This document shows, in pieces, positions 18,039 through 39,430 of a DNA stretch of 64,000 nucleotides. The position numbers were made by a program, and so were the translations under genes. The DNA comes from Nanobdellota archaeon (lineage in GTDB: Archaea > Nanobdellota > Nanobdellia > Pacearchaeales > GW2011-AR1). Below the pieces are notes generated by a model, which made no database searches, was not told where the DNA came from, and saw only the letters and a list, made by a program, of their open reading frames with translations. Every line of letters begins with the position of its first letter. Within the stretch, counting starts at the first letter, position 1. Location: contig JAUYMA010000003.1 of NCBI GenBank assembly GCA_030698805.1, forward strand, positions 12,167-76,166, read 5' to 3'.

Positions 18039-18079
18039 GTAACTATAAAGTAATTACAAATAGTAAGTTTTATATATGC
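18039..18079 (+). promoter_or_regulatory. conserved 41-nt promoter element (copy A) with TATA box
   Basis: gtaactataaagtaattacaaatagtaagttttatatatgc. It matches 36083-36123 at 38 of 41 positions (my count). TTTATATAT lies 21-29 nt upstream of ATG 18098. Confidence 0.6.
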
Positions 18080-18097
18080 AGAAAGTATGTATAAAAT

Positions 18098-18262
18098 ATG
18101 CAGAATTCAAGCATAAGAAGGCAAATTGTCATTACAAAGAAAATTGCCAAGCATGGCAAGCAATCAGTAGTTGTTATTCCCAGGGCTGTGGAAAGTCAAT
18201 TGAAACCTGGCACCTTAGCTAAATTTACCATTGATGTATTGGAGGAATCAAAAAATGATTAA
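18098..18262 (+). CDS. small AbrB/SpoVT/MazE-like protein (module copy 1)
   Basis: Hand-translated 54-aa ORF absent from the track (MQNSSIRRQIVITKKIAKHGKQSVVVIPRAVESQLKPGTLAKFTIDVLEESKND). It has a swapped-hairpin-like pattern (K..S..V.IP......L.PG). Paralogues lie at 35880-36047 and 36154-36312. Confidence 0.6.
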   Translation: MQNSSIRRQIVITKKIAKHGKQSVVVIPRAVESQLKPGTLAKFTIDVLEESKND

Positions 18263-19859
18263 TTCTTTACAAACTCAAAGAGCTACATTAGAAGGAGTAA
18301 TCAATTCTGAGAGATATACTGTTAAATCTTTGCTTGGCAAGGGCACATGGGGAAGAGTTTATCGAGCTGAGGATTCTCAATTGAGAATAGATGTAGCAGT
18401 CAAGGTATTGGACCCCTCTCCTTTGGCTGAAGATCAGATGAGGCATCGCCAACTTACTGAAGAACGCATCATAAAGAATGAAGCTCTTGAATTAACTGCT
18501 TGTTCTCATGTTGTGCCTAGAATGTTTGCAGTTGATAAAAATGGAAAGCCTTTCATTGTCATGCCATTATACAAAAATTTTCTCTCTGACAAGATTGAGC
18601 AAGATGGATCGCAATTATTCTTTAGGCAAGGTCTGCAGGAAAGCGATATTGTGCATTATATGAGAGATATCTCCTTAGGACTGGGAGAGTTGCACACCAA
18701 ATTAAGCAGGGTGCATGGAGATTTGAAACCAGATAATCTTGCTTTAGATTCTGAAGGCAATGTTCTTGTAAATGATCTCGGAACTTCCACTTGTGCGTCT
18801 TTAGGCTGGAGCTTGTCGCCAAGAGATAATATGGGGTTTATCTATACCCGCGCCCCAGAATGTTTTGCTAAAGATAATCAGAGGCTAAGCCATCCTACTA
18901 AAGAATCAGATGTGTGGGGATTTGGAGCATTAGCATACAGATTGTTTACTGGCAGTTATCCTTTAGAACCTGAATTTGATGGGAATAATCCAAACAAAGT
19001 CATAGAAGAGCTTGGTGTAGATGGAGGAAACAGGCTCATGAAAAATAAAGTCAGAAATGTGCCTGAAAAATTTAGAAAATACTTAAGAGAATGTTTGAAC
19101 TTTACTCCTTACTTAAGATTTCACGATGGAATACACGCTAACCAGTCCCTTCAAACACTTATTGAAAGCCGCACTCCTGCTGCAATTTTAAAGAAGAGCT
19201 TGCAAAGGGCGGCTTATATTACCGTGCCTTCTGCTCTTGTGGGATTGGGATTATATATGGGAATGGTCCATGAGCCTCAAGACTTAACCATGCCGCAAGT
19301 GAAGATGGAGGGTTACCTTTCAGTAGACAATGATATGCTTGCTGAGGGGGAGAGAATTGTTTTTGATAAAGAAAACATACCTCGTCTTCCTGTTCCTAAA
19401 CTATTTCAAGTGGGCCACCAAGCAGAAATGCGAAAAGCAACAAAAAATAGATACGCGGCATATTTGCTAAAGACTTATGTGCAGACATTTCAAGATATCC
19501 GGCAAGCTTTTGAAGTTCCATTCGTGATAACCGCTCAACATGATACCTGGAGCGGCTATACAACTGATGCAGAAAAACAAGTCCGAGGAATGTATAATGG
19601 TATTTTCTTTGTTATAGCTAGAAACATTGAAGTGGCATTAACTCAAAGCAAGACTCCTAAAGGTACAGTCGATTTGGAAGACGTATGCGCTATAAGCCGT
19701 GTTGGCATTGATAAAGTAAATGAAGCGAGAAGGGCAGCCAATAGTTTTGATTTTAATGACTATATTTATGCAAGGAACAAACATGGGGATAGAATTATAG
19801 GGGAAAGAGATGAAGAATTTGTAAAAACCTGGTTAAGTTATATTAATTTAAATCTTTAA
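18255..19859 (+). CDS. membrane-spanning Hanks-type Ser/Thr protein kinase (module copy 1)
   Basis: LLGKGTWGRVY (Gly loop), VAVKVL, HGDLKPDNLAL, VNDLGTS and TRAPE. One TM (ITVPSALVGLGLYMGMV) followed by a roughly 190-aa C-terminal domain. Start set to ATG 18255, in an 8-nt overlap (ATGATTAA) with the small ORF. Confidence 0.85.
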   Translation: MINSLQTQRATLEGVINSERYTVKSLLGKGTWGRVYRAEDSQLRIDVAVKVLDPSPLAEDQMRHRQLTEERIIKNEALELTACSHVVPRMFAVDKNGKPFIVMPLYKNFLSDKIEQDGSQLFFRQGLQESDIVHYMRDISLGLGELHTKLSRVHGDLKPDNLALDSEGNVLVNDLGTSTCASLGWSLSPRDNMGFIYTRAPECFAKDNQRLSHPTKESDVWGFGALAYRLFTGSYPLEPEFDGNNPNKVIEELGVDGGNRLMKNKVRNVPEKFRKYLRECLNFTPYLRFHDGIHANQSLQTLIESRTPAAILKKSLQRAAYITVPSALVGLGLYMGMVHEPQDLTMPQVKMEGYLSVDNDMLAEGERIVFDKENIPRLPVPKLFQVGHQAEMRKATKNRYAAYLLKTYVQTFQDIRQAFEVPFVITAQHDTWSGYTTDAEKQVRGMYNGIFFVIARNIEVALTQSKTPKGTVDLEDVCAISRVGIDKVNEARRAANSFDFNDYIYARNKHGDRIIGERDEEFVKTWLSYINLNL

Positions 19860-20772
19860 CTTCTTTCGCTATAAGCAGTTCGCTGAATAAGGGACTTGTT
19901 CCTATCTGAATTAAACGGTAAATCTCTCTAATGTAAGAAAGTAAAACTGCCTCTTCTCCCCTTGCAGATTTTATAGCTTCTAGACATTTACCAAAATGAT
20001 ATTTCTCTTTTCCTGAATTTATCTTATGAATTGCATTCTCATCTTTTCTTAAATAAGCCTCGTAATAAAGCGAGAAATAATTCTGCAATTCTTTTACGAG
20101 ATTTTTTGTTTCTTTTCCACATTTAACTTTTTTACTGGCAGCGTGAAGATAAGTATAAGATATTGCATGCCCTATATGAGTTAAAAAAGTTAGCAATTCC
20201 CAAGCTAATGCAGGATTTCTTTCCTCCTGCTCTTTCGTTAATATACGCCTACAGAAAAGAACAAATTTATCATGCTGGTCTCTCAACTCAGTTATATCTT
20301 GGAGATGTTTAAACTCTCCTTTTTCAGTGTCTCTATTTAAGATTTCAATAGTCTCCTGGATGATTATGAAAAGTCTTCTTAGGAGCACATCATATTTTTG
20401 GTCTGTTGGCTCAGAGAGATTTTCCAGAGTGCATTTATTCGCGGTTCTATCAGTCAGCTCAAATCCTAGTAAAAGGGGTAAAGTTGCTTTAATTTCTTTA
20501 AATGACTTTTCATCCAGATTTTCTATGGTAATTGCATCAAATCCTCTTCTGTAAAGATGAGTTAAGAGTGCCCTTACATCTGATCTTGCCTCATTATCTA
20601 AGACAACTAAGGTCATCTTCTTTTTTAGCACTGCTGATTGAATAATTAAAGAAGTATCTTTCTCCTGCAACCGAATTTTATCTCCTTCTTTAAGGCCTTT
20701 TTTATCCACCCATGATTTAGGAAGATAAATAGTGTAACCTCCTCCCCCTTGTTTGATGAGTGTTCTTTCCAT
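19843..20772 (-). CDS. AbrB/SpoVT-domain plus PhoU-like regulator (module copy 1)
   Basis: N-terminus MERTLIKQGGGGYTIYLPKSWVDKKGLKEGDKIRL is an AbrB/SpoVT fold pattern. It is followed by a helical, PhoU-like body with the ...FCRRIL... motif shared by all three copies. The 3' end overlaps the kinase 3' end by 17 nt. Confidence 0.75.
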   Translation of the reverse strand: MERTLIKQGGGGYTIYLPKSWVDKKGLKEGDKIRLQEKDTSLIIQSAVLKKKMTLVVLDNEARSDVRALLTHLYRRGFDAITIENLDEKSFKEIKATLPLLLGFELTDRTANKCTLENLSEPTDQKYDVLLRRLFIIIQETIEILNRDTEKGEFKHLQDITELRDQHDKFVLFCRRILTKEQEERNPALAWELLTFLTHIGHAISYTYLHAASKKVKCGKETKNLVKELQNYFSLYYEAYLRKDENAIHKINSGKEKYHFGKCLEAIKSARGEEAVLLSYIREIYRLIQIGTSPLFSELLIAKEVKDLN

Positions 20773-20806
20773 TTTATAGAGAATATTCTAGGCTATATAA
20801 GGCTTT

Positions 20807-20832
20807 TGATATCACTCATATCAATAATATCA
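20807..20832. promoter_or_regulatory. operator-like inverted/direct repeat in the divergent AbrB-PhoU / AAA intergenic region
   Basis: TGATAT-cactc-ATATCA-ata-ATATCA. Read on the minus strand, 20832-20818 is TGATATTATTGATAT, matching 32761-32775 (TGATATTATTAATAT) at 14 of 15 positions. It lies about 45 nt upstream of the AbrB-PhoU ATG. Confidence 0.45.
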
Positions 20833-20986
20833 GTTAAATATTAAAGACATTATTGTTGTTACTTTATTATGATAACAGAAAAAATGTACTGTCCTATCGG
20901 AGTTACAATGACTGTCAGAGCTTTCAGGGTGAAAAAATATCTGGCTATTCTGTTTTATGTAAATAAGAAATTCGGAGAAAGACACA

Positions 20987-22468: not shown

Positions 22469-22469
22469 G

Positions 22470-22895
22470 ATGAGAACATTAGAACAAACCCCTGAAAATC
22501 AGAAGTCTGGAGATCAGAAAGAATCGGGATTATCATCTATGGATGTAATGCCAATTATAGTTACTGCCAGACCTAGCTTGTCTGAAGCAGAGAATGCATT
22601 AATGAGAAGACTTCCTGCTTCCTATACGGAAAGAACTGTAAGAGATGTCTTAAGTTATATCATGGGATCTGCTGTAGCTGATACAGAAGCTTCAACAATG
22701 AAGAGTTTAAGAAACGAACTTGGAGCGGCTGGTAGCTATATCCTTGTTAATGGGAAAGAAGCAAAGCTGACTGACAGAGTAGAAGGATATCTTGTTGATA
22801 GAACTGAAACTGTCGAAGGCAGACCAATAAAATATCGACAGCTTGAGATAGAAATTTCTGCGGTTCAACAGGGAGGTTATCAGAGAAGATTCTAG
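22470..22895 (+). CDS. ubiquitin-like (beta-grasp, ThiS/MoaD/SAMP-like) protein precursor with GG plus 5-aa tail
   Basis: 141 aa starting 1 nt after the AAA stop. The N-terminal roughly 40 aa are polar and disordered-looking. The C-terminal part reads ...SYILVNGKEAKLTDRVEGYL...QLEIEISAVQQGG-YQRRF. The diglycine is at codons 135-136 (22872-22877). Confidence 0.6.
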   Translation: MRTLEQTPENQKSGDQKESGLSSMDVMPIIVTARPSLSEAENALMRRLPASYTERTVRDVLSYIMGSAVADTEASTMKSLRNELGAAGSYILVNGKEAKLTDRVEGYLVDRTETVEGRPIKYRQLEIEISAVQQGGYQRRF

Positions 22896-29420: not shown

Positions 29421-30467
29421 ATGGACTTATATCAATTAATTACTCAGGCAGTTGGAGGATTCTCGGTTGGTTTAGGGGCCTCTTTGAATTACAAAAGATA
29501 TAATGAAGCAGTGAATAGCATGGAATATGCAAAATTAATTGATGAATCTAGATTGGGAAAAGAATTAGAAAGCAAGGGTTTGACTGAGGAAAAATTAAAA
29601 AATTGGCATGAAGCAAATCGCAGACTTAATATCTTATCTCCTTATCTTTATGGCTTTGGATTTTCAGTAGCCACTAGCATAGCCTCGTTTGCCCAATGGA
29701 ATTTTGGTGAAAATGTTTTGATTTCAGTACCATCTGCTTACCTCGGCTTTGCTGCTGGAGTCTTGACTCATAGAATTAAAAATATGAAATTTAGGGAGGA
29801 GATGCAAATAGCCCAAGAGATGAAGAGAAATCCAGATTCTATTGAAGCTCTTCTTACTGAAAATGAAAGATCAACTATCAGGACTTCCTTGGAACAAATT
29901 GAGCAAGGAATGTTTGAAGGAAGCTTTAACCCTCTTACTTCAAAGCCGCTTTTCCTAATCTACTCTACTGTAATCGAGAGAAATAAAGTTTACACGCCTT
30001 TAGTTACCCAATGGAGCTTAAAGGAAATTGAAAAAGCAATATCTTCCGGCAAATTACAAAAAGATCTTAAAGATTTCTATGAAACTCCTCTTCCCATTGG
30101 GGGGAGCATTGCTACTGCCTCCCTTAACTCTCTTGTAATAGAAAGGCCGACTCGTGTCTTTGTAAGGGAAGGGGATAAGTTTTATTCTCTAGATGTTTCC
30201 TGGAAGAATATTCGAATTATAGAACAAGATGAGACTAAAGAAGTAAGCATATGTGGCACTGCTCCGGATCTAAGAAAGATCCAAGAAGAATCTTGGAATC
30301 CTGATTACAAAACCCTGGCGCATATTGTTGAAGAGCATGGCAAAGATGCAAATAGAGTTATAATGCTCGCTCCTGAGAATACTTCTCTGGGACTTCAGGG
30401 AGCGATATTAACACAAAATTATGTGGAAGAACTAGTAAGAAGACTGAAGAATGAGAAAAAGAACTAA
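29421..30467 (+). CDS. membrane protein with C-terminal soluble domain, last gene of the Ubl operon
   Basis: ATG 29421 is 1 nt after the P4 stop, with AAGGAGG upstream. Hydrophobic segments are LITQAVGGFSVGLGASL, YLYGFGFSVATSIASFAQW and LISVPSAYLGFAAGVLT, followed by about 220 soluble residues. No family recognised. Confidence 0.5.
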   Translation: MDLYQLITQAVGGFSVGLGASLNYKRYNEAVNSMEYAKLIDESRLGKELESKGLTEEKLKNWHEANRRLNILSPYLYGFGFSVATSIASFAQWNFGENVLISVPSAYLGFAAGVLTHRIKNMKFREEMQIAQEMKRNPDSIEALLTENERSTIRTSLEQIEQGMFEGSFNPLTSKPLFLIYSTVIERNKVYTPLVTQWSLKEIEKAISSGKLQKDLKDFYETPLPIGGSIATASLNSLVIERPTRVFVREGDKFYSLDVSWKNIRIIEQDETKEVSICGTAPDLRKIQEESWNPDYKTLAHIVEEHGKDANRVIMLAPENTSLGLQGAILTQNYVEELVRRLKNEKKN

Positions 30468-31174
30468 TTATTCTTAGGGCCTAGCAAAACAAAAATATAA
30501 TCTCCATAAGTACCTTCTTCGCTATGCTCGGGCCAGGTTTTTGTAATTCCATGATGATCAAAGTGTCTTTTTACTTTAGGCAAGCGTTTTCCCAGAGAAG
30601 TCTTAAATTCATCCTTAAGAACATCATTAGCAATAATGTCTGTGCATGCTTCTATTACCTCATCTGGAGCGCCGTTTCTTATTGTGGCTGCTAAGTATTC
30701 ATATCCTAATTTGGCAGCACCCAGTTTTCTTTCAAGCTCATTAGAATAATCGTCAATATAACAATCAGAAAGAATAGCGGTTCCGGAAGGATTTAACCAG
30801 GAAGCCATGTTATGGATTAATTCTCCTTGTCTTTCATAAGGAAGATGATGTAAAGCTCCTGTACATGTTATAACATCAAATTTTCTTTGTGGTTTCCAAG
30901 TTAGAACATCTCCAACTTCAAAATGGGCTTGAGGATATTTTTTCATCCCGTGCTCGACATAACTTTGTTCAATATCCACACCATGCAAAGATAAGTCTGG
31001 TCTTTGCTGTAATAATTGGCCTTGCAAGTATCCTGGGCCGCACATTAAATCAAGAACCTTCGCACTTTTCTGGGCTACTGCACAAAGTATTTGAACAACT
31101 GTCTTGATTGATTCTCTATAAGGCCAATAAACTAATTCTTGTTCGTATGTTTCTGGAGGAGGTAAAGGTTTCAT
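30464..31174 (-). CDS. class I SAM-dependent methyltransferase (left arm, M2)
   Basis: Motif I VLDLMCGPGYL, then HGVDIE and FDVITCTGALHHLP. Confidence 0.7.
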   Translation of the reverse strand: MKPLPPPETYEQELVYWPYRESIKTVVQILCAVAQKSAKVLDLMCGPGYLQGQLLQQRPDLSLHGVDIEQSYVEHGMKKYPQAHFEVGDVLTWKPQRKFDVITCTGALHHLPYERQGELIHNMASWLNPSGTAILSDCYIDDYSNELERKLGAAKLGYEYLAATIRNGAPDEVIEACTDIIANDVLKDEFKTSLGKRLPKVKRHFDHHGITKTWPEHSEEGTYGDYIFVLLGPKNN

Positions 31175-31175
31175 T

Positions 31176-31904
31176 TTATTTTTTATAAGCTATAACCAGT
31201 GCATCTCTTTCGATGCGCTTGACAATTCTAGGCTTGGAAAATCCTGCATCTCTCAAATCTTGCAGAGCTTCGTTTTCTCTCATGACAAAGGGTTCCTGAT
31301 GATCTTGGACTTCATGCTCAATGATTGCTTCGGCCAATCCTGCAGGCCATTTATTTTTCTGACTTATTGATCTATATCTGTCAACTGCAACTTGCAATGA
31401 ACGTCTCTCTTTTCTTGGATCATCTGATACGAATTTGTCCATGCATAAATAAAGTGCCCCAGGAAACATGGCTTCATATCCTGTCTTTAGAATCTTCCTG
31501 CGCTCTTCTCTTGGAAAATTATGCAAAGCCCAGGCTGAAGCGAGCACATCCATTTGTCCAGCACATAGTTCTAGACAGTCCAGGACTTTAGTTCTTATAG
31601 GAAATAAACGGCCTTGAGAAATATAAGATTTAAAATTAGTAGCTAACTCCTCTTGCATTCTGTCGCTAGGATCTATGGCTATCACTTTGGATCTCTGCTC
31701 GTATTCTAAGATATACTTTGTGGCCTCTCCTCTACCGCTTCCTATTTCAACAACGTTTATTGCCTTACCCTTATGTTTTCTGAAGTGAGTAGCAATTGTC
31801 TTGCCCAATCTTCTATGCATCTCTCCACTATGCGGCCAAGCCTGAAGAAGAGTATCGTAATTATCTACTAAAATTCCCGAATATCGTGGTTCTCGAGTTG
31901 CCAT
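31176..31904 (-). CDS. class I SAM-dependent methyltransferase (left arm, M1)
   Basis: Motif I VVEIGSGRGEAT, then VIAIDPS and DVLASAWALHNF. Confidence 0.7.
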   Translation of the reverse strand: MATREPRYSGILVDNYDTLLQAWPHSGEMHRRLGKTIATHFRKHKGKAINVVEIGSGRGEATKYILEYEQRSKVIAIDPSDRMQEELATNFKSYISQGRLFPIRTKVLDCLELCAGQMDVLASAWALHNFPREERRKILKTGYEAMFPGALYLCMDKFVSDDPRKERRSLQVAVDRYRSISQKNKWPAGLAEAIIEHEVQDHQEPFVMRENEALQDLRDAGFSKPRIVKRIERDALVIAYKK

Positions 31905-31906
31905 AT

Positions 31907-32689
31907 TTACCAGCTCTTTCTAAGAGAAAGATCAAAGGTGGCAGCATGATCTTTGAAAACTCCATGCATATCATCAATTGCTTTTTGGGCTCTGACTCCT
32001 GCATTTAATGAATATCCCCTTCCTAGATCTGCCCCCACATTTAGTCCAATAGCGGCAACTGAAAATCCAGAATCAGGTACGAAGTATCTATTATTGTAGG
32101 AGAGTCTGCTTTCCACTCCAAGAGTTAATCTATCTGTTAATGGAAAATTCTTGCTTAGCTTTAATTGGAATAATTGACCTTCGTGGCTTATTTCTCCATA
32201 AGACTGAACAGCTGTAAAAGTGACATCTACTGGCAACTTCTTTGTTTGCACACTTACTCCCAGAGTATATGCATCTTCCAATTCAGTATTTGGAAATGTG
32301 AACCAGTAAAATTCAGGCCTTATCCTGAAGTTCTCTGTTTCAAGATTGAGAGTTAGAGAGTTGTCTAATTCGTTCAATCCATTCTTCATATCATAATTAC
32401 CCCAGAGATTGTAAGATAGTTTTCCTATATTAAATCCCATATCACTTTGAATGACTGGTCCTTCTGATAAGGTAAAACCATATGTTCCCATATATCTTGA
32501 ATGCCAACTTGTGCCTACAGAGAAATTGCTAGGTTTTAGAGAGAAGGTTTCTTTTTCTACTGACACATCTGCAGCTCCTGCTGAAGGACTTTCTCCATCA
32601 TCTGCCTTTGTGCTTACTGTAGTAGTTGCAAGAATACCTGCAAGTCCTAACGATGCTATCTTTCCTATTGTTCTTGTTGTGTTTTTCAT
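31907..32689 (-). CDS. secreted beta-rich protein, outer-membrane beta-barrel-like (left arm)
   Basis: Start trimmed to ATG 32689 (MKNTTRTIGKIASLGLAGILATTTVSTKADD is a signal peptide). Amphipathic alternating beta-strand patterns throughout. The C-terminus ...ATFDLSLRKSW ends in an aromatic residue. Confidence 0.5.
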   Translation of the reverse strand: MKNTTRTIGKIASLGLAGILATTTVSTKADDGESPSAGAADVSVEKETFSLKPSNFSVGTSWHSRYMGTYGFTLSEGPVIQSDMGFNIGKLSYNLWGNYDMKNGLNELDNSLTLNLETENFRIRPEFYWFTFPNTELEDAYTLGVSVQTKKLPVDVTFTAVQSYGEISHEGQLFQLKLSKNFPLTDRLTLGVESRLSYNNRYFVPDSGFSVAAIGLNVGADLGRGYSLNAGVRAQKAIDDMHGVFKDHAATFDLSLRKSW

Positions 32690-32760
32690 TTCGTGTTTTC
32701 CTTTTGTAACCACTTTATGATTACAATAATATAATGAAAAATTAGCTATTAATATTTTAT

Positions 32761-32777
32761 TGATATTATTAATATTA
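32761..32777. promoter_or_regulatory. operator-like TGATAT-N5-ATATTA upstream of AbrB-PhoU copy 2
   Basis: TGATATTATTAATATTA, followed by GTAAGATTTAAAAT (a TATA region resembling the 41-nt element), about 43 nt upstream of ATG 32819. Confidence 0.4.
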
Positions 32778-32818
32778 ATAATAGTAAGATTTAAAATGGG
32801 GGGAAACTTAGAAAAGAG

Positions 32819-33730
32819 ATGCAAAGAAAGCTTATTGGCCAGGGTTTAGGAGGAATTACTGTTCACTTACCTAAAAGATGGATCGATGCTCATCACTTGA
32901 AGAAAGGAAATGAGATAGACATAGAAGATTCTGAAGGAAAATTGATAATATCCCCTAAAAAGATAAATAAAGATAAAAAAGAAACTTCTATCAGGCTCTC
33001 AGGATTAGAAGAATCTCTTATTAGAACACTTATTGCAAATACTTACAGGTTAGGATACGACTCTATCAAGGTAGATTTTGAAAATGAAAAACAATTTCAA
33101 ATATTAAATGAGATAATTCAAAAAAGATTAATTGGTTTTGAGATAATCAAAAAAGATTCCGGAAGCTGCATTGTAGAAAATGTGACTGAACCCGAAGAAG
33201 ATCAGTTTGGTAATATTATGCAGAAGCTCTTTCTTAATATAGATACATTGCTGGAAAATATTAATCAACTATGCTCCTCGGATAAAGCTCAGATTAGCGA
33301 GAGTATTGATGAACTAGATGATAGGATACTGAAATATGACAATTTCTGCAGGAGGATATTATTAAGAAGGAGATTTGATGAAAAATCTGCTTTGCATTTA
33401 GCTTTCTTGACTATGATTATACATGGAGAAAGAGAATTATATTATCTTTCTAAGTCTATTGGCAAAGGTATGAAGTGCTCTTCAGAAACTCTTAAGATTA
33501 TAGGTGGTATTGCTCAAATTAACAAACTTATTCAAGAAGCCTATAATAAGAAAAAATTTGATAATCTAGCAGATATTAATGCTATTGGAAGGAGAATTAT
33601 CTATAAAGAAGGCTATAAATTAATGGAAAATAAAAAAGGAAAGGAGCTTATTGTGATACATCATCTCTTAGCATGCACCAGGGATTTTTACCAAGCAGTC
33701 AGCCCATTGAGCGGATTATTGTTCACGTGA
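32819..33730 (+). CDS. AbrB/SpoVT-domain plus PhoU-like regulator (module copy 2)
   Basis: MQRKLIGQGLGGITVHLPKRWIDAHHLKKGNEIDI N-terminus and a helical body with YDNFCRRILLR. The 3' end overlaps the kinase 3' end by 15 nt. Confidence 0.75.
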   Translation: MQRKLIGQGLGGITVHLPKRWIDAHHLKKGNEIDIEDSEGKLIISPKKINKDKKETSIRLSGLEESLIRTLIANTYRLGYDSIKVDFENEKQFQILNEIIQKRLIGFEIIKKDSGSCIVENVTEPEEDQFGNIMQKLFLNIDTLLENINQLCSSDKAQISESIDELDDRILKYDNFCRRILLRRRFDEKSALHLAFLTMIIHGERELYYLSKSIGKGMKCSSETLKIIGGIAQINKLIQEAYNKKKFDNLADINAIGRRIIYKEGYKLMENKKGKELIVIHHLLACTRDFYQAVSPLSGLLFT

Positions 33731-35887
33731 CCTATATTCTATGACCTTCTCTGCGAAATCCTGAGAAGGCACTGAAATATTCCAATCAAGCAGTTTATAT
33801 CCATTATTGTTTGTTCCGTGATATATTGGATAGGCGGTAGAGAAGTTAGTCTCCCCCGTCTTATTGTTTATCAAGTCGATAAGCAGAGTATATTCTCCAT
33901 GGGGTGTTTCATTGCCTGGAAGGGGAATGTAATGAATATACTTATTAGTTTCAGAGAATCCTAATTCAGGTATTGAATAAGTTGCAGATAAATCTCCTTT
34001 TTCATTTAAATGATATGTTCTTTCTTCTTCGAAAATTCCATTAGTATGAATATATGTACTTACCCCAACATCATTGTCCCCATATGAAAACCTAAGCCCT
34101 GTGATTCGTGCATGTCTGTTAGGTATATCTCCTACTACTATGGGAATTCTTTGTTGCGCTAAGATATTGTTTGTATTGCAATTTATTATAAATTCTCCCT
34201 CATCTTTAGGGTTTGCAGCTCTTGGTGGGAGAGAATCGACAAGGAGAGTATAATTTCCAGAAGGGAAATTAGTGGGGATTTTTATTGTGGTTGAAGAAGG
34301 ATACCCTGATCCAAAAGGCAAGTTTTTAGGAGGAACTAACTTAGGATCTCTAGAAGATGTATTGAATATCTCTGGAGAGATATTGGTATTGCCTTCTACT
34401 GCAACTTCGATAGGATAAATTAAATAAGGAACCCTAAATTGTTTTGATTGAAGAGGTTTCTGAATAATATTTGCGAATACTCTCACCTCATCTCCTTGTT
34501 GTAGATGCAATATTGATGTTTTTTCTGGATATCTTTGACCTGGAGCAACTGCCCAAGTACTCAATTCATAAAGAGCTGAGGGCTGGAGATTATTATTACC
34601 GTCCCAATCCGAATTAATCTCAATTGTTCTTTCTTTATCGTTCAATTGCTTTTCTGCATCTTTAAGTTTGGCATTATCTAAATGAGCATAGTAGCCAAGC
34701 GCAGAGATTGCTAAAGCACTTGCGGCTGCTGCAACAGTATTTCTTGGGGAAGAAGGTTTTTCCCAAAATGATGGACTAGAGGCTTCCTCAAATTTTTCTA
34801 GAAGTTTACCTAAATTATTTATGCGACTCGAACCTAAAGTCAATCCATGATAAAGGAGGTCTCTAAATTTTCTTGCATTTTTTGGTAGCTTACTCAATGC
34901 CTTATTTAGTTGTGATTCATATTGATTGACATCGAGGTGCTCTGGACTATAAGGGTCAACTATGAGGAAATCTTTTCCTAAAAGCATCATACCAAACATT
35001 TTCGTTAGAGAGTAAACTTCAGAAGCCTCATCATAATGTGAGGGCTTACCTGTTCTTGAACTCATTAGTCTAGGATCGCAAGTGGTTCTTCCTGGGCAGG
35101 AATGAGTATAGCTATCCACTACTTCTCCGTCGACTCCTGCTGCAGAAGTATCAGTTATCACTATCTCTCCTAATCTGTCTTCCAAAGAAACTAAAACATT
35201 AGAAGGTTTTAAGTCTCTGTGAAGATGGCCTGTCTTCTGCCTGAATCTCTGAGCCGAACTAAACATTTGCTCTGCAAATGAAGAAGCAATTGGCAAAGGA
35301 ACCTTCTCCTTTTGGTCTAATATGTCTTGAAGAGAAACTGATGGAATAAAAGTTTCAGCATAAGCATAGCTTCCTGCATATCCGACATCGGATAGTTCCT
35401 TGCAGGCTATCGGGGCTGAAAATCCTGGCATTCGCTGAAGATTTAGCGCCATATTTGCTTCTCTCCTAGCATTATAGCCCTTCCTAAAATGTTTAAGCAT
35501 AGCTGGAGAAGGATTATTCAGCATAATCTCTCCCTCGGGTTTATCCATCTTAACTGCAAGGCGAAGATTATTGCCTGAACCATCAAATACCGATTCTGCT
35601 ACAAATACTGTTTTAATGTTCCCCTCCGCACAATAGGCCCAATTAGTGTAATCTGGGAATTTTTTCTTTAGAGCATCTACCTTTGTCTTTAATTCTAAGG
35701 AAAGATCATTATAAGGAGTAATTCTAGGCCCTTGTATTTCTTGGAGAAATTCCTTGAGAGTCATGGTCCTTTGAGGCTTCTCAAATAAAGATTTTATGCC
35801 TCTCCATACATACCCAATATAATCTGGTCCTGGAAATTGACTTTGGCCCTTTCTTACCTTAACAAGTGCTACCTCTAATTCAGGCAT
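33716..35887 (-). CDS. membrane-spanning Hanks-type Ser/Thr protein kinase (module copy 2)
   Basis: LAVKM, HLHRDLKPSNVLV and ITDTSAAG. One TM (VAAAASALAISALGYYAHL) and a roughly 330-aa C-terminal ectodomain homologous to that of copy 3. Start set at ATG 35887 (8-nt overlap ATGCCTGA); the track start is 35911. Confidence 0.8.
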   Translation of the reverse strand: MPELEVALVKVRKGQSQFPGPDYIGYVWRGIKSLFEKPQRTMTLKEFLQEIQGPRITPYNDLSLELKTKVDALKKKFPDYTNWAYCAEGNIKTVFVAESVFDGSGNNLRLAVKMDKPEGEIMLNNPSPAMLKHFRKGYNARREANMALNLQRMPGFSAPIACKELSDVGYAGSYAYAETFIPSVSLQDILDQKEKVPLPIASSFAEQMFSSAQRFRQKTGHLHRDLKPSNVLVSLEDRLGEIVITDTSAAGVDGEVVDSYTHSCPGRTTCDPRLMSSRTGKPSHYDEASEVYSLTKMFGMMLLGKDFLIVDPYSPEHLDVNQYESQLNKALSKLPKNARKFRDLLYHGLTLGSSRINNLGKLLEKFEEASSPSFWEKPSSPRNTVAAAASALAISALGYYAHLDNAKLKDAEKQLNDKERTIEINSDWDGNNNLQPSALYELSTWAVAPGQRYPEKTSILHLQQGDEVRVFANIIQKPLQSKQFRVPYLIYPIEVAVEGNTNISPEIFNTSSRDPKLVPPKNLPFGSGYPSSTTIKIPTNFPSGNYTLLVDSLPPRAANPKDEGEFIINCNTNNILAQQRIPIVVGDIPNRHARITGLRFSYGDNDVGVSTYIHTNGIFEEERTYHLNEKGDLSATYSIPELGFSETNKYIHYIPLPGNETPHGEYTLLIDLINNKTGETNFSTAYPIYHGTNNNGYKLLDWNISVPSQDFAEKVIEYRSREQ

Positions 35888-36047
35888 TTTCTTTCTCCTC
35901 CAGATTTTCATGAATGAGATCTATCTTCAATTGAGTAAGCATGCCTGGCTTAATTATTCCTTCAAGATCTTTTGGAATTACAATTACTGATTGCCTGCCG
36001 TGTTTTGCAATTCTTTTAGTTATAATAATTGATTTTGGGCCTTTCAT
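35880..36047 (-). CDS. small AbrB/SpoVT/MazE-like protein (module copy 2)
   Basis: Hand-translated 55-aa ORF absent from the track (MKGPKSIIITKRIAKHGRQSVIVIPKDLEGIIKPGMLTQLKIDLIHENLEEKENA). Confidence 0.6.
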   Translation of the reverse strand: MKGPKSIIITKRIAKHGRQSVIVIPKDLEGIIKPGMLTQLKIDLIHENLEEKENA

Positions 36048-36049
36048 TT

Positions 36050-36068
36050 GATACATCAGAGATGTATC
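36050..36068. promoter_or_regulatory. perfect palindrome gATACATc-aga-gATGTATc (ATACAT-N5-ATGTAT), left operator
   Basis: 8-bp arms with a 3-nt spacer, 3 nt upstream of the minus-strand small-ORF ATG (36047). Confidence 0.55.
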
Positions 36069-36082
36069 AGGTATATTTAAAT

Positions 36083-36123
36083 GTAACTATAAAGTAATAA
36101 CAAATCGTAAGATTTATATATGC
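36083..36123 (+). promoter_or_regulatory. conserved 41-nt promoter element (copy B) with TATA box
   Basis: gtaactataaagtaataacaaatcgtaagatttatatatgc, matching 18039-18079 at 38 of 41 positions. TTTATATAT is at 36113-36121. Confidence 0.6.
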
Positions 36124-36125
36124 CT

Positions 36126-36144
36126 TATACATACTTTATGTATA
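36126..36144. promoter_or_regulatory. perfect palindrome tATACATa-ctt-tATGTATa (ATACAT-N5-ATGTAT), right operator
   Basis: 8-bp arms with a 3-nt spacer, between the TATA box and ATG 36154. Confidence 0.55.
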
Positions 36145-36153: not shown

Positions 36154-36312
36154 ATGGAAAGCAAAAAATTCGTTATAACGAAAAAAGTCGCCAAGCATGG
36201 AAGCCAGGCCATCATAGTTATCCCTAGAATTCTTGAATCTGAGCTTAAACCTGGCACTATTGCTCAAGTGACTATTGAAATTATAGAAAGCCAAGGAGGA
36301 CAAAATGAGTGA
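36154..36312 (+). CDS. small AbrB/SpoVT/MazE-like protein (module copy 3)
   Basis: Hand-translated 52-aa ORF absent from the track (MESKKFVITKKVAKHGSQAIIVIPRILESELKPGTIAQVTIEIIESQGGQNE). Confidence 0.6.
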   Translation: MESKKFVITKKVAKHGSQAIIVIPRILESELKPGTIAQVTIEIIESQGGQNE

Positions 36313-38434
36313 GACTGGGGTTTCTACAAGAGAGGAAATAATAAAAATAGCCAGAGGCGTTTTGCCCCGAGGTAAATATCATGATTTGAAGTCTTTTGAC
36401 GAAGAAGAAGGCGCCCAACGAATTTGTTTGACTGCAAATAGAGGTATACCTCCTCATACTCAAGAGGTTTTTATTAAAATTGATAAGGAGCCTGTCGGAG
36501 AAGCAGCCTCTAGATTAAAAGAAGGGGGATATACCACACATCAAGAAGTAAAAACTCTTCTAGAAATTCCAGTGGATGAGGCTATTCATAATCATTTGAG
36601 CCCGGTAGTAGATTTCTATATGAGTGCATCTACTGGCTCTACAATATCTGTAGAACCCAGATTTAAAGGTGCCAAGTCTTTGAAGAGAAGGGTGGCAGAG
36701 CAAGGCCCGTTAGACACTAAAGAATTTGAAGATTTTATGCGCCAATATGTTCAGGCCAATGTATATTTAATTAAAAATAGAAGAATGGTGCATCGAGACC
36801 AGCACCCTAAGAATATTTTGATAGGGCCTTCTATAAATGGAAAGGGATTGGAAGCAAGACTTACTGATATGACTACTGCGACAACTTTGGATTCTATTGA
36901 CCAAAGCAGTTCTACAACTTGGGGGGCCAGATCGATAAGGCACTTTGCATATGGCAATTCTTCATTTGAGAAGAGAATCGGAGCAGAACAAGCTGAGATA
37001 TATTCTATTGGTATGAATGCTATCTTCTCTTTGACCGGCATGTTCCCGGTTTATTATGATAATCTTAATGGAACTGGGATTAGCGCATTTACTGGTGAAA
37101 ATCTTCTAAATAAAGATGGAACAGTCAACATAGAGAAACATAATGAGGCTATAGAACAAGCCCTCTCTAAATTCCCGAAGAAAGCTAGAAAGCACACTGG
37201 ATGGATAAAGAAATGTGTAAATGGAGATGTGGATAAGCAGTACAGGTCTATTGATAGTCTTGTTAGAGATTTTGAAAGAACAGTTACCCCTACCCTAATT
37301 GATAGAATGAGAAGTATTCCTAAGAAAGTTAAAGCAGGATTAGCTGCAGGTCTTGCCGCTTTGACAATAGGGGGCGGTGCGCTTACCTATGAGATTATTG
37401 AAAAAAATAAGGAACATTCTGTCCAACTTGCAGAAGCAAGTAGATACAAAATTACTGCAGAATGGAATGGACTTAACCCTCAGATAAGAAATAATTTATT
37501 TGAAATGAAGGCAAGCTTATACGGCAAAGATTATAGTAAGGGATATCCTAGAAATAAATTCTTAAGAGTTGAAAGAGGACAAGAGCTTAGCGGACATATA
37601 GAATGCAAAGAATATCCTCGTCAGCAAAATTCTAGATTAGGAGATTTCTATTCCTATTCGGGCCAGGCTTATATAGAGGGTTATCCCCTTGAAGAAGGAA
37701 TCTCTGATACTTTTGGAGTGACCCCCATACCTTCAAATGAAGCTGGCGCTTACGCAGAAGGGGCTTACTTTGGAGGAGACTTTAGGATAAAGATACCTAA
37801 AGATCTAAGAGATGGTGTATATAGCTTGGCTATTGCCACTTATGCTCCCACTGAAGAAGTAATAGCTAAAAAAGAATCTGAAAATAGAAGGACTGCAACT
37901 TCTGTTAATATAAAATTTACCGCCCCTGGAAAGGCCTTAACATTAAAAACTATTCCACTCATAGTTGGAGATCCTAAACCTGCTTTAGCACAGCACGAAT
38001 TTAATATTAACAGCTTTGATGATAATATCTCCCTTGATGAAGTACAAGGAAGAGATGAATTCGGAGGAGGGCTCTCACCTCGAAGCAGTTATTTCGCTTC
38101 CACCTCTTTAGTTAATGATGAAAAGATTTCCATTTTAGGGAGAGGGATAAATAGAAGTACCTTAGGGATAAAATTACCTGAAGGAACAAATTATTTGGAG
38201 GGAGTTGCTGAAGTGGGAGTTTATTCCCTAGAGTCTAAGCAAATAATTTTCTACACCGCATTTCCAATTAGGAGAACTGAATATCCCTCACAATTGCAAT
38301 CCCCTCTTTATTTCTGGGGATTAGGCCTGCCTGGGAAAGATTTTCCTGAAAAGTTGATAGAACATAGACAGAATTTAGAGATAAAAGCTGCAGAAGCCTT
38401 TGCTAGAACTAATTATTCATTACCTAAAGAATAA
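36305..38434 (+). CDS. membrane-spanning kinase-like protein with divergent catalytic motifs (module copy 3)
   Basis: VFIKI, MVHRDQHPKNILI (HRD-x4-N kept, Lys replaced by His) and RLTDMTTA; no clear Gly-rich loop. One TM (AGLAAGLAALTIGGGALTY) and an ectodomain homologous to copy 2. 8-nt overlap ATGAGTGA with the small ORF. Confidence 0.75.
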   Translation: MSETGVSTREEIIKIARGVLPRGKYHDLKSFDEEEGAQRICLTANRGIPPHTQEVFIKIDKEPVGEAASRLKEGGYTTHQEVKTLLEIPVDEAIHNHLSPVVDFYMSASTGSTISVEPRFKGAKSLKRRVAEQGPLDTKEFEDFMRQYVQANVYLIKNRRMVHRDQHPKNILIGPSINGKGLEARLTDMTTATTLDSIDQSSSTTWGARSIRHFAYGNSSFEKRIGAEQAEIYSIGMNAIFSLTGMFPVYYDNLNGTGISAFTGENLLNKDGTVNIEKHNEAIEQALSKFPKKARKHTGWIKKCVNGDVDKQYRSIDSLVRDFERTVTPTLIDRMRSIPKKVKAGLAAGLAALTIGGGALTYEIIEKNKEHSVQLAEASRYKITAEWNGLNPQIRNNLFEMKASLYGKDYSKGYPRNKFLRVERGQELSGHIECKEYPRQQNSRLGDFYSYSGQAYIEGYPLEEGISDTFGVTPIPSNEAGAYAEGAYFGGDFRIKIPKDLRDGVYSLAIATYAPTEEVIAKKESENRRTATSVNIKFTAPGKALTLKTIPLIVGDPKPALAQHEFNINSFDDNISLDEVQGRDEFGGGLSPRSSYFASTSLVNDEKISILGRGINRSTLGIKLPEGTNYLEGVAEVGVYSLESKQIIFYTAFPIRRTEYPSQLQSPLYFWGLGLPGKDFPEKLIEHRQNLEIKAAEAFARTNYSLPKE

Positions 38435-39297: not shown

Positions 39298-39430
39298 CTC
39301 TTTTTCAGCCTTTCATAATATATAAGCTTTTTCTTTTTTATATATACTTTATACTAATATATATAGTTTAATAACAAGGTTTAAACCTATCTTTTCTTCA
39401 TATTATTAACTAAATAGTAGTTACAATAAA

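What the first reader, a model, noticed from the sequence alone, without database searches (positions are those of the whole stretch)
18098..20772. Thrice-repeated three-gene module: small AbrB-like protein, 8-nt-overlapped membrane Hanks kinase, and a convergent overlapping AbrB-PhoU regulator
Seen: the same layout occurs at 18098-20772 (+,+,-), 32819-36047 (mirrored) and 36154-39297. Each has a 52-55-aa AbrB/SpoVT-like ORF, too short for the supplied track, with the consensus (I/V)ITK(K/R)(I/V)AKHG.Q(S/A).(I/V)VIP...E..(L/I)KPG. Each small ORF's stop overlaps the kinase ATG by exactly 8 nt (ATGATTAA, ATGCCTGA, ATGAGTGA). Each kinase has one TM and a C-terminal ectodomain. Each roughly 300-aa AbrB-PhoU gene converges on the kinase, with 15-22-nt 3' overlaps. 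Established: AbrB-type regulators and Hanks kinases both exist in archaea. Inference: I know of no described system with this fixed tripartite architecture. It looks like a one-TM sensor kinase feeding two AbrB-type DNA binders, amplified three-fold within 21 kb.
Basis: partly seen in the sequence, partly recalled or inferred. Interest (0 to 1): 0.75.

Follow-up and report, generated by a model that had tools for sequence, protein, structure and literature searches.

The report
Conserved archaeal kinase–regulator gene cassette
Three old copies of a gene cassette, made of a tiny very conserved protein, a membrane protein kinase and an opposing AbrB-PhoU-type regulator, sit in this Nanoarchaeota genome and recur in dozens of related species; it looks like an undescribed signalling unit of these tiny symbiotic archaea.

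Summary
Three modules (18098-20772, 32819-36056, 36154-39297) each hold a 52-58-aa ORF, an 8-nt-overlapped one-TM Hanks-type kinase, and a convergent ~300-aa gene overlapping its 3' end by 15-22 nt. They are old paralogues (small 44-54 %, long 25-29 %, kinases about 20 % identity), not a recent amplification.

The small ORF is a genuine protein family. It has more than 1100 clusters, all Nanoarchaeota-type, and codon-position differences of 0.25/0.10/0.60. I could not show that it is AbrB-like. The long protein has a Pfam-significant AbrB N-terminus and a predicted six-helix bundle whose best PDB matches are PhoU proteins.

Among 80 loci from other species, 34 of 37 long genes converge on a large gene (26 recognisable kinases), and 29 also have the small gene upstream.

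Three details need correcting:
- The 8-nt overlap is not fixed; 4, 8 and 11 nt are all common.
- The small gene also leads operons for unrelated proteins.
- The small gene carries its own conserved promoter with two operator-like elements.

Two long-protein subfamilies co-vary perfectly with two upstream operators, which argues for autoregulation. A divergent secreted, beta-rich protein gene is a frequent fourth part.

Best reading: a lineage-specific transmembrane Ser/Thr-kinase signalling cassette. I found no description of it in the searchable literature.

The parts
18039..18057 (+). Op1 element GTAACTATAAAGTAATTAC, just upstream of the BRE/TATA of the M1 small gene
   Evidence: The same element lies upstream of the M3 small gene and of many small genes in other species.
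18068..18076 (+). TATA box (TTTTATATA) of the M1 small-kinase operon
   Evidence: Its position matches the GAAAGGTTTATAAA consensus seen in other loci.
18086..18093 (+). Op2 half-site TATGTATA, between the TATA box and the ATG of the M1 small gene
   Evidence: ATGTATA/TATACAT heptamers are about 50-fold enriched upstream of small genes.
18098..18262 (+). M1 small conserved protein (54 aa)
   Evidence: NCBI tag Q8Q31_00410, annotated as hypothetical.
18255..19859 (+). M1 membrane Ser/Thr kinase (534 aa), with TM at residues 320-338 and a 196-aa C-terminal outer domain
   Evidence: Pfam Pkinase 7.5e-25. Motifs VAVKV, HGDLKPDN and DLG. Overlaps the small gene by 8 nt.
19843..20772 (-). M1 long regulator (309 aa, type A): AbrB domain, alpha/beta domain, PhoU-like bundle
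   Evidence: PF04014 4.3e-6, above the cut-off. Family fold. Converges on the kinase with a 17-nt overlap.
20794..20844 (-). Promoter of the M1 long gene: TATA box (20794-20802) and type-A operator with TGATAT/ATATCA/TTAATATT repeats (20807-20844)
   Evidence: This operator type co-varies with the type-A protein.
20858..20876 (+). Op1-like 19-mer GTTACTTTATTATGATAAC, between the M1 long gene and the AAA/JAB/ThiF operon
30464..31904 (-). Two SAM-dependent methyltransferase genes (30464-31174, 31176-31904) downstream of the M2 secreted-protein gene
   Evidence: Mirrored at 40695-42193, and the same layout is seen in L087.
31907..32692 (-). Secreted beta-rich protein (about 260 aa from MKNTT...), divergent from the M2 long gene
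   Evidence: Signal-peptide-like N-terminus and an aromatic C-terminus. Weak MipA match, E 0.0055. Homologues lie next to long genes in L011, L005, L070, L080 and L062.
32706..32724 (+). Op1-like 19-mer GTAACCACTTTATGATTAC, 14 nt from the ATG of the secreted-protein gene
32749..32796 (+). Type-A operator (TTAATATT/TGATATT repeats, 32749-32782) and TATA box (32788-32796) of the M2 long gene
32819..33730 (+). M2 long regulator (303 aa, type A)
   Evidence: PF04014 1.1e-7. 15-nt 3' overlap with the kinase.
33716..35887 (-). M2 membrane kinase (723 aa), with TM at residues 385-403 and a 320-aa outer domain
   Evidence: Pkinase 1.2e-6, below the cut-off. HRDLKPSN, LAVKM and a DTS motif.
35880..36056 (-). 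M2 small conserved protein (58 aa, divergent subtype IIITKRIAKHGRQ...)
   Evidence: NCBI tag Q8Q31_00505.
36049..36069 (.). Palindrome TGATACATC-aga-GATGTATCA across the M2 small-gene start; a variant of Op2 with the same geometry
36074..36120 (.). Shared control region of M2 and M3: M2 TATA box (36074-82, minus strand), Op1 GTAACTATAAAGTAATAAC (36083-36101), M3 TATA box (36112-36120)
36126..36144 (.). Op2 palindrome TATACATA-ctt-TATGTATA, just upstream of the M3 small gene
36154..36312 (+). M3 small conserved protein (52 aa)
   Evidence: NCBI tag Q8Q31_00510.
36305..38434 (+). M3 membrane kinase (709 aa), with TM at residues 342-360 and a 349-aa outer domain
   Evidence: Pkinase 3.8e-7, below the cut-off. 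Matches PDB StkP at 1e-4. HRDQHPKN and a DMT motif.
38413..39297 (-). M3 long regulator (294 aa, type B)
   Evidence: PF04014 6.7e-7 and PhoU 0.0024. AF2 pLDDT 86.8; best PDB fold matches are PhoU 2i0m, 1t72, 1sum and 4q25.
39319..39374 (-). TATA box (39319-27) and type-B operator TTATTAAACTATATATATTAGTATAAAGTATATATA (39339-74) of the M3 long gene
39406..39424 (-). Op1-like 19-mer (GTAACTACTATTTAGTTAA), 7 nt upstream of the secreted-protein gene
39431..40693 (+). Secreted beta-rich protein (420 aa, ends ...EAEFKF), divergent from the M3 long gene
   Evidence: No Pfam or PDB relative.
40695..42193 (+). Two SAM-dependent methyltransferase genes (40695-41435, 41432-42193)

Best explanation
This is a lineage-specific signalling cassette of Nanoarchaeota (Woesearchaeota/Pacearchaeota-type DPANN archaea). 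It is present here as three ancient paralogues.

Proposed working, with shown and inferred steps marked:
1. A portable promoter drives the small gene. The promoter consists of the Op1 palindrome, a BRE/TATA box and the Op2 TATACATA/TATGTATA palindrome (shown).
2. The small gene's acidic 3' codons contain a GGAGG ribosome-binding site, and its stop codon overlaps the start of the next gene. The small protein and the kinase are therefore made together (layout shown; coupling inferred).
3. The small protein works as a dimer. It most likely binds the conserved operator in its own promoter as an autoregulator (inferred).
4. The kinase has a cytoplasmic catalytic domain, one membrane helix and a variable outer domain. 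It senses something outside the cell (topology predicted; sensing inferred).
5. The convergent long gene encodes an AbrB DNA-binding domain, a small alpha/beta domain and a PhoU-like helical bundle. It binds a subfamily-specific operator in front of its own gene. From there it probably also controls the divergently transcribed secreted, beta-rich protein operon (co-variation shown; binding inferred).
6. The kinase changes the activity of the long regulator, and perhaps of the small protein. It could do so by phosphorylation, or through contact with the PhoU-like domain, as PhoU contacts the sensor kinase PhoR in bacteria (inferred).
For: Triad conservation:
- 265 copies of the small gene were confirmed in GTDB species representatives, all Nanoarchaeota-type.
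- In the best 80 loci, 31 of 77 downstream partners fall in one kinase cluster and 3 in an APH/EcKL-like kinase-fold cluster.
- 34 of 37 long genes have a convergent partner of at least 200 aa whose 3' end lies within -139 to +63 nt. Of these, 26 are recognisable kinases and 29 also have the small gene upstream.
- Starting from the long protein instead, P0150, P0218, P0189 and P0124 all converge on a Pkinase gene.

Small gene:
- It is under purifying selection, with codon-position differences of 0.25/0.10/0.60.
- Tandem double versions exist, which points to a dimeric unit.
- The 3' end carries a GGAGG, and stop/start overlaps are the rule.

Promoter:
- The Op1-TATA-Op2 order is visible across species.
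- At least two ATGTATA/TATACAT heptamers lie within 120 nt upstream of 25 of 91 small genes, against 0.5 % of random windows.
- Op1-type 19-mers occur at all five intergenic borders of the three modules (6 hits against 0.93 expected).

Long protein:
- PF04014 is above threshold in all three copies.
- The structure model has pLDDT 86.8, and the top fold hits are PhoU proteins at probability 1.0 and target-normalised TM-score up to 0.64.
- The two subfamilies differ in the AbrB beta1-loop-beta2 segment and co-vary with two different upstream operators: 12 of 13 type A and 14 of 20 type B match their own operator, with no cross-matches.

Kinases and neighbours:
- The catalytic Lys, Asp, Asn and Mg-binding Asp are kept in all three kinases. 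Each has a single TM, and positive-inside charge is seen for K1 and K3.
- The gene divergent from the long gene has a signal-peptide-like N-terminus in about 25 of 32 loci.
- The whole mirror pair, with secreted-protein and methyltransferase genes, is kept in another genome.

Precedent: B. subtilis AbrB is phosphorylated by Hanks kinases and then binds DNA less well (PMC4837961).
Against: - There is no direct evidence for phosphorylation of either partner, and the long family has no invariant Ser/Thr.
- The DNA-binding role of the small protein rests on a weak resemblance only.
- The small gene also precedes solute-binding proteins, an alpha/beta hydrolase, an AlaE-like protein, a methyltransferase and many unknowns. 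Its link to kinase signalling may therefore be generic.
- The operator patterns were defined after inspection. The subfamily/operator co-variation could partly reflect common descent of gene and promoter.
- Kinases 2 and 3 have degenerate glycine loops and DFG motifs, so their activity is not assured.
- Overlapping gene ends are common in compact genomes.
- The kinase outer domains and the secreted proteins have no recognisable family.
Confidence: 0.55

Rival explanations
1. The small protein is a modulator of the long regulator, not a DNA binder. As a half-size AbrB-like unit, it would pair with the AbrB domain of the long protein. This would form a mixed dimer that changes or blocks DNA binding, in the way small anti-repressors act on SinR-type or AbrB-type regulators.
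For: - The only register-correct similarity of the small family is to the AbrB segment of the long family (hhalign).
- AbrB-type domains fold only as intertwined dimers (established knowledge).
- The monomer model shows almost no secondary structure on its own.
- The small protein seems to lack the last strand of a full AbrB domain (alignment reading).
Against: - The similarity is not significant (E = 0.11).
- Most small genes lie in loci without a long gene.
- Tandem double small proteins argue for homodimers.
- The highly conserved operator next to a highly conserved small protein fits self-regulation better.
Confidence: 0.15
2. The cassette is a phosphate-starvation (Pho-type) regulon unit. 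The AbrB-PhoU protein would be a phosphate-uptake regulator, the kinase would stand in for PhoR, and the divergent secreted beta-rich proteins would be phosphate-related surface proteins.
For: - JGI names the long family 'phosphate uptake regulator'.
- The fold matches PhoU from phosphate-transport systems.
- In bacteria PhoU works with a sensor kinase (established knowledge).
Against: - No pst or pho transport genes lie next to any of the three modules or in the loci inspected.
- Pfam PhoU is below threshold (18.6 bits against 23.5, one copy only).
- The helical bundle has no invariant acidic residues of the kind that mark the metal-binding motifs of PhoU.
- There are several paralogous cassettes per genome, with different outer domains.
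Confidence: 0.1
3. The cassette is a toxin-antitoxin-like or anti-virus module. The small AbrB/MazE-like protein would be an antitoxin and the kinase a toxic or abortive-infection effector.
For: - JGI calls some small proteins 'antitoxin component of MazEF'.
- A small upstream gene with overlapping stop and start is the typical layout of type II systems.
- The kinases match defence kinase models mad6 and PD-T4-6.
Against: - Those matches cover only the generic kinase domain. NCBIfam MADS6 scores 63 bits against a 460-bit cut-off.
- The small and long proteins match nothing in PADLOC.
- The kinases are membrane proteins with large outer domains.
- The partners of the small gene include solute-binding proteins and enzymes, not toxins.
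- No PIN, MazF or Doc genes were seen.
- The cassette keeps a stable chromosomal position with conserved neighbours.
Confidence: 0.05
4. The genes are merely neighbours in a compact genome and are not functionally coupled.
For: Gene overlaps and tight packing are common in small archaeal genomes (established knowledge). No experiment links the genes.
Against: The order, orientation and tail-to-tail contact are kept across dozens of species, although the proteins have diverged to 20-30 % identity. The flanking genes vary.
Confidence: 0.03

Closest known systems
Bacterial Hanks-type kinase signalling to AbrB (B. subtilis PrkC/PrkD/YabT acting on AbrB Ser86)
   Same: A membrane-anchored eukaryote-like Ser/Thr kinase is paired with an AbrB-type DNA-binding regulator. 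In B. subtilis, phosphorylation lowers DNA binding (PMC4837961).
   Different: In Bacillus the kinase and AbrB genes are not linked, and AbrB has no PhoU-like domain. Here the pair is a fixed convergent gene couple with a third small gene, in archaea, and phosphorylation is untested.
Archaeal AbrB-PhoU proteins annotated as 'phosphate uptake regulator' (COG0704-type)
   Same: An N-terminal SpoVT/AbrB domain is followed by a PhoU-like helical bundle.
   Different: The sequences are so diverged that Pfam PhoU is not reached. An extra alpha/beta domain lies between the two parts. There is no link to pst genes, and the gene is constantly paired with a kinase. I know of no functional study of this subfamily; that statement rests on my own knowledge and the searches.
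PhoR-PhoU-PstSCAB signalling in bacteria
   Same: A PhoU-fold protein works together with a membrane sensor kinase (established knowledge).
   Different: The kinase here is a Ser/Thr-type enzyme, not a histidine kinase. The PhoU-like domain is fused to a DNA-binding domain, and no transporter is present.
Type II toxin-antitoxin operons with AbrB/MazE-type antitoxins (VapB, MazE)
   Same: A small gene of 50-60 codons sits first in the operon, its stop overlaps the next start, and a palindromic operator lies in its own promoter.
   Different: The downstream genes are kinases, binding proteins and enzymes rather than toxins. The small protein is not recognised by the MazE/AbrB model.
Two-component systems (sensor histidine kinase plus response regulator)
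   Same: The logic is the same: a membrane sensor kinase encoded next to its DNA-binding partner, with autoregulation.
   Different: There is no HisKA/HATPase or receiver domain. The chemistry and the protein folds differ.

Membership tests
SpoVT/AbrB (Pfam PF04014), long proteins | N-terminal swapped-hairpin domain that matches the family model above the curated cut-off | tested here: met
   27.0, 32.1 and 29.6 bits against a cut-off of 24.7 for the three copies. The AF2 model shows the strand-helix-strand pattern at residues 1-45.
SpoVT/AbrB (Pfam PF04014), small proteins | Match to the family model, or to a solved AbrB/MazE structure | tested here: inconclusive
   - No Pfam or NCBIfam hit for the three window copies, and 0 of 41 relatives match PF04014 even at E <= 10.
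- The PDB profile search finds no AbrB or MazE.
- The best Foldseek hits are MazE 1mvf/2mru and the RIFT protein 8jvq, but at E 2.5-3.3.
- hhalign against the long family is in register, at E = 0.11.
- The exhaustive profile search pulls in no canonical AbrB.
PhoU (Pfam PF01895), long proteins | Sequence match to the PhoU repeat above the curated cut-off | tested here: not met
   Only M3 matches, at 18.6 bits against 23.5, E 0.0024. The PDB profile search gives no PhoU.
PhoU (fold level), long proteins | Six-helix bundle made of two three-helix repeats, superposable on solved PhoU | tested here: met
   The model has pLDDT 86.8 and six long helices at 126-291. The top PDB hits are 2i0m, 1t72 (target-normalised TM-score 0.64, rmsd 3.3 A over 206 columns), 1sum and 4q25, at probability 1.0 and E 3e-3 to 9e-2.
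PhoU, long proteins | Conserved acidic metal-binding motifs in each repeat | tested here: not met
   The invariant and near-invariant columns of the 40-sequence alignment include no acidic residue in the bundle. The conserved motif there is F-C-x-R.
Hanks-type (eukaryote-like) protein kinases, Pfam PF00069 | Kinase domain match plus the catalytic Lys, HRD Asp, Asn and DFG Asp | tested here: met
   K1 scores 88.2 bits (cut-off 31.7). K2 scores 28.6 and K3 30.2 bits, just below. All three keep the Lys, Asp, Asn and Mg-binding Asp, and K3 matches StkP in the PDB at 1e-4. Catalytic activity was not testable.
Type II toxin-antitoxin system | The downstream partner belongs to a toxin family (PIN, MazF, Doc, HipA and similar) | tested here: not met
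   The partners are Pkinase, APH/EcKL-like, Peripla_BP_6, NMT1, alpha/beta hydrolase, AlaE-like, methyltransferase or unknown proteins.
Known anti-virus defence systems (PADLOC, NCBIfam MADS/BREX) | All components match the system's models at family level | tested here: not met
   Only the generic kinase domain matches. NCBIfam MADS6 scores 63 bits against 460, and PglW 16 against 990. The small and long proteins match nothing.
Two-component system | Histidine kinase (HisKA/HATPase) and receiver domain | tested here: not met
   No such domains appear in any of the nine proteins.

The most novel reading that the evidence does not exclude
Nanoarchaeota-type DPANN archaea use a signalling system of their own in place of classical two-component systems. 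It has four parts:
- a transmembrane Ser/Thr kinase;
- a cognate AbrB-PhoU-like transcription factor with its own operator;
- a new family of about 55-aa dimeric co-regulators, carried on a portable promoter-plus-leader cassette;
- a target operon for secreted, porin-like surface proteins.

The system would let these episymbionts remodel their surface in response to outside cues, possibly from the host.
Probability: 0.3. Interest if true: 0.78.

Novelty: new variant of a known kind. Interest (0 to 1): 0.62.

Why it matters
Almost nothing is known about how DPANN archaea sense their surroundings. They are tiny, mostly uncultured cells that depend on hosts.

This cassette gives a concrete and widely conserved candidate pathway. 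It supplies defined proteins, predicted operators of 17-36 bp, and a likely target operon for surface proteins. Each of these can be tested in vitro without growing the organism.

The small protein family has more than 1100 clusters, no Pfam model and 'hypothetical' annotation. Together with its promoter it behaves as a portable regulatory unit placed in front of many different genes. That would be a new way of wiring gene control in archaea.

If the secreted partners are true membrane beta-barrels, that would also bear on the cell-envelope structure of these archaea.

Tried and rejected
- **AbrB identity of the small protein.** I tried Pfam, NCBIfam, a PDB profile search, AF2 plus Foldseek, and a profile-profile comparison. 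None gave a significant result. The monomer model has almost no secondary structure.
- **Fusions of the small domain to known domains.** The exhaustive search of 1.84 billion representatives found none.
- **A strict Op2 palindrome as the universal operator.** ATACAT-N5-ATGTAT occurs exactly upstream of only 13 of 91 small genes, because the half-sites occur in several arrangements. Heptamer counting worked better.
- **A regular expression for Op1 plus BRE/TATA.** It was too crude and even missed the window's own sites, so I did not use it.
- **Co-variation between small-protein subtypes and operator variants.** Only two divergent examples exist (window M2 and L011). A third apparent palindrome turned out to be coding sequence of an N-terminal extension.
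- **Membrane or secreted bias among non-kinase partners of the small gene.** There is none: 18 of 49 against a 41 % background.
- **Identity of the kinase outer domains and the secreted proteins.** No Pfam or PDB relatives were found.
- **Conservation of the methyltransferase and secreted-protein neighbours.** phmmer shows it only sporadically. It became clear only after looking at signal peptides and C-termini.
- **RNA genes in the window.** Rfam finds none, and there is only one tRNA, at 61123-61202.
- **Literature.** Searches for DPANN/AbrB/kinase and AbrB/PhoU/archaea found no description.

Full report
**1. The observation**

ORF listing reproduces the three modules exactly.
- M1: small ORF 18098-18262(+), kinase from ATG 18255 to 19859(+), long gene 19843-20772(-).
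- M2, mirrored: long 32819-33730(+), kinase 33716-35887(-), small 35880-36056(-).
- M3: small 36154-36312(+), kinase 36305-38434(+), long 38413-39297(-).

The stop/start junctions read ATGATTAA, ATGCCTGA and ATGAGTGA. The convergent 3' overlaps are 17, 15 and 22 nt. The three small proteins share 17 invariant residues.

Identity between copies is low: 44-54 % for the small proteins, 25-29 % for the long ones and 19-22 % for the kinases. These are old paralogues, not a recent amplification.

**2. Domains**

Kinases:
- Kinase 1 is a clear Pkinase (7.5e-25).
- Kinases 2 and 3 fall just under Pfam's cut-off. They keep the catalytic Lys, the HRD Asp, the Asn and the Mg-binding Asp.
- Kinase 3 matches StkP in the PDB.
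- Each kinase has one hydrophobic helix after the catalytic domain, followed by 196-349 further residues. The flanking charge fits a cytoplasmic kinase domain for K1 and K3.

Long proteins:
- All three have a SpoVT/AbrB (PF04014) N-terminus above threshold. PhoU is only a weak hit in M3.
- A model of the M3 long protein, built on 40 relatives, is confident (pLDDT 86.8). It shows the AbrB part, an alpha/beta domain at 55-120 and six long helices at 126-291.
- Its best PDB matches are PhoU proteins: 2i0m, 1t72 (target-normalised TM-score 0.64), 1sum and 4q25, all at probability 1.0.
- The 'AbrB-PhoU' label therefore holds at fold level. The sequence is too diverged for the Pfam model, and the usual conserved acidic motifs are not evident.

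Small proteins:
- They match no Pfam, NCBIfam, PADLOC or PDB entry.
- The monomer model (pLDDT 76.8) has MazE and a RIFT-barrel protein as its best hits, but these are non-significant.
- Profile-profile alignment to the AbrB part of the long family is in register, at E = 0.11.
- 'AbrB-like' is therefore a reasonable lead, not a result.

**3. The organism and the small family**

The three small ORFs are annotated as hypothetical proteins of a Nanoarchaeota MAG (Q8Q31_00410, _00505, _00510) on a 91-kb contig.
- The family has 1115 clusters in the 5.8-billion-protein set. Almost all are 50-60 aa, and the core is very conserved: ITKKIAKHGSQAIIVIPRILExQLKPGT.
- An exhaustive profile search finds only 156 clusters at 50 % identity. 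All are short, with no fusions.
- Six clusters are tandem doubles of about 100 aa, which suggests a dimeric working unit.
- Across 71 genes the differences per codon position are 0.25/0.10/0.60. This is the signature of a translated gene under purifying selection.

**4. Synteny elsewhere**

A scan of one genome per GTDB species found 265 copies. All lie in Woesearchaeota-, Pacearchaeota- or Nanoarchaeia-labelled MAGs, apart from a few titled Methanosarcinales. I called ORFs in the best 80 loci and searched them with profiles.
- Of 77 genes immediately downstream of a small gene, 31 form one kinase cluster. Three form an APH/EcKL-like kinase-fold cluster. The rest are mostly singletons: two Peripla_BP_6 binding proteins, an NMT1-type binding protein, an alpha/beta hydrolase, an AlaE-like protein, a methyltransferase and many unknowns.
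- Of 37 long genes (34 in the other-species loci plus the 3 in the window), 34 have a convergent partner of at least 200 aa ending within -139 to +63 nt. Of these, 26 are recognisable kinases and 29 also have the small gene upstream.
- Starting from the long protein instead, four further genomes show the same convergent Pkinase.
- One of them, JAIYLI010000009.1, keeps the whole M2/M3 mirror, including the flanking secreted-protein and methyltransferase genes.

The triad is therefore a conserved unit. However, the small gene is a more general operon leader whose commonest cargo is this kinase.

**5. Junctions**

The small gene's acidic tail codons contain GGAGG about 8 nt before the next ATG. 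The overlap is 4 nt in 24 cases, 8 nt in 14, 11 nt in 11 and 17 nt in 4, with a 1-nt gap in 9. The 8-nt overlap seen three times in the window is one common variant, not a rule.

**6. Control regions**

This part is new. Upstream of the small genes, many species share the same order of elements:
- an imperfect palindrome of the TGTAAC-N-GTTACA type, which I call Op1;
- a BRE/TATA box (GAAAGGTTTATAAA);
- TATACATA/TATGTATA half-sites close to the ATG, which I call Op2.

Positions in the window:
- M1: Op1 18039-18057, TATA 18068-18076, one Op2 half-site 18086-18093.
- M3: Op1 36083-36101, TATA 36112-36120, full Op2 36126-36144.
- M2 shares that Op1 from the other side. It has its own TATA (36074-36082) and a variant palindrome across its start (36049-36069).

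At least two heptamers ATGTATA/TATACAT lie within 120 nt upstream of 25 of 91 small genes, against 0.5 % of random windows.

The pattern GTWAC-N9-RTWAM occurs 6 times in the window against 0.93 expected. Five of the six lie in the five intergenic regions that bound the three modules. This pattern was derived after inspection, so the count is only indicative.

**7. The long gene's own operator**

The long proteins split into two types, and each type has its own conserved upstream element.
- Type A (…QGGGG/QGKGG/QGLGG…; M1 and M2) has TGATAT/ATATCA/TTAATATT repeats.
- Type B (…QGAATMMISLP…; M3) has TTATTAAACTATATATATTAGTATAAA….

Twelve of 13 type-A genes carry the A words and none carry the B words. 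Fourteen of 20 type-B genes carry the B words and none carry the A words. The proteins differ exactly in the AbrB strand-loop-strand segment that contacts DNA in this fold. This is good comparative support for autoregulation, with the caveat that a gene and its promoter are inherited together.

**8. A fourth part**

The gene divergent from the long gene has a signal-peptide-like N-terminus in about 25 of 32 loci. In 13 loci its product ends in Phe or Trp after a beta-rich sequence, as bacterial outer-membrane barrels do. Another group has lipobox-like cysteines.

In the window these genes are 39431-40693 and 31907-32692, each followed by two SAM methyltransferase genes. No family or solved relative was found. 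M1 instead faces an AAA-JAB-ThiF operon.

**9. Mechanism**

The best-supported reading is a transmembrane Ser/Thr-kinase signalling cassette.
- Layout, conservation, fold and operator co-variation are shown.
- Translational coupling, autoregulation by the small protein, control of the divergent operon by the long protein, and kinase action on the regulator(s) are inferred.

The Bacillus precedent is that AbrB Ser86 is phosphorylated by PrkC, PrkD and YabT and then binds DNA less well (PMC4837961). The PhoU-PhoR partnership in bacteria is established knowledge. Both make the inferred steps plausible.

Rivals considered:
- The small protein as a partner or poison of the long AbrB domain.
- A phosphate regulon unit.
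- A toxin-antitoxin or defence module.
- Mere adjacency.

The last two are poorly compatible with the data.

**10. Novelty**

Searches of the held literature found nothing that combines these parts in archaea. The main review of archaeal protein phosphorylation mentions neither AbrB nor PhoU.

The domains are known kinds. The fixed architecture, the small protein family with its portable promoter, and the operator sets appear undescribed. I rate this a new variant of a known kind (kinase-to-transcription-factor signalling), with interest 0.62.

Noticed in passing
window 39431-40693 (+) and 31907-32692 (-); also L003, L005, L026, L033, L044, L050, L075, L079, L081: These proteins are divergent from the long regulator. 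They have signal peptides, beta-rich Gly/Asn/Tyr-rich sequences and a C-terminal Phe or Trp (…EAEFKF, …LRKSW), like bacterial outer-membrane barrels, which is odd for an archaeon. No Pfam or PDB relative was found beyond a weak MipA hit.
   Followed up: partly
window 30464-31904 (-) and 40695-42193 (+): Pairs of SAM-dependent methyltransferase genes follow each secreted-protein gene, mirrored around 36100. The same layout, with three methyltransferases on one side, is seen in L087.
   Followed up: partly
window 20987-25306 (+): This operon faces the M1 long gene. It encodes an AAA ATPase with a proteasomal-ATPase OB domain (20987-22468), an unknown protein (22338-22895), a JAB deubiquitinase-like protein (22923-23900) and a ThiF/E1-like protein (23888-25306). 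It looks like a ubiquitin-like modifier system. An Op1-like 19-mer lies at 20858-20876.
   Followed up: partly
P0001-P0006; L076 3653-3979: These are tandem-duplicated versions of the small protein (about 100 aa, two full repeats in one chain). They would be the best target for a structure prediction of the complete fold.
   Followed up: partly
L087 (JAIYLI010000009.1 73097-93981): A related genome keeps the whole head-to-head twin arrangement. One twin has an extra 161-aa gene between the small gene and the kinase. Similar inserts of 147-216 aa occur in L004, L009, L011, L015 and L026.
   Followed up: partly
window 36305-38434, kinase 3 residues 163-170: The catalytic loop reads HRDQHPKN instead of HRDLKPxN. 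The usual Lys is replaced by His, and a Lys sits two positions later. This recalls the shifted basic residue of tyrosine kinases. Kinases 2 and 3 also have DTS and DMT in place of DFG.
   Followed up: no
L031 2801-7047: This locus has an atypical order. Two tandem kinase genes are followed by the small gene, which itself converges on the long gene and overlaps it.
   Followed up: no
L039, L047, L064, L067, L072, L077, L080 (record titles): Several genome records that carry the family are titled 'uncultured Methanosarcinales archaeon', yet their loci look like the Woesearchaeota ones. This is probably a labelling problem in those assemblies.
   Followed up: no
L038 3985-4236 and L070 12660-12857: A subtype of the small protein has a conserved N-terminal extension (…FTIQKQDVSVSQNSL…). 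Its coding DNA contains a perfect 9-bp inverted repeat, ACAGAAACA-aga-TGTTTCTGT, identical in two distant genomes.
   Followed up: no
L084 4704-4871 and 8277-8453: In one 1.36-Mb contig, the operon divergent from the long gene also starts with a 55-aa gene and runs through about ten short genes to a methyltransferase. The small-leader arrangement may therefore occur on both sides of the regulator.
   Followed up: no
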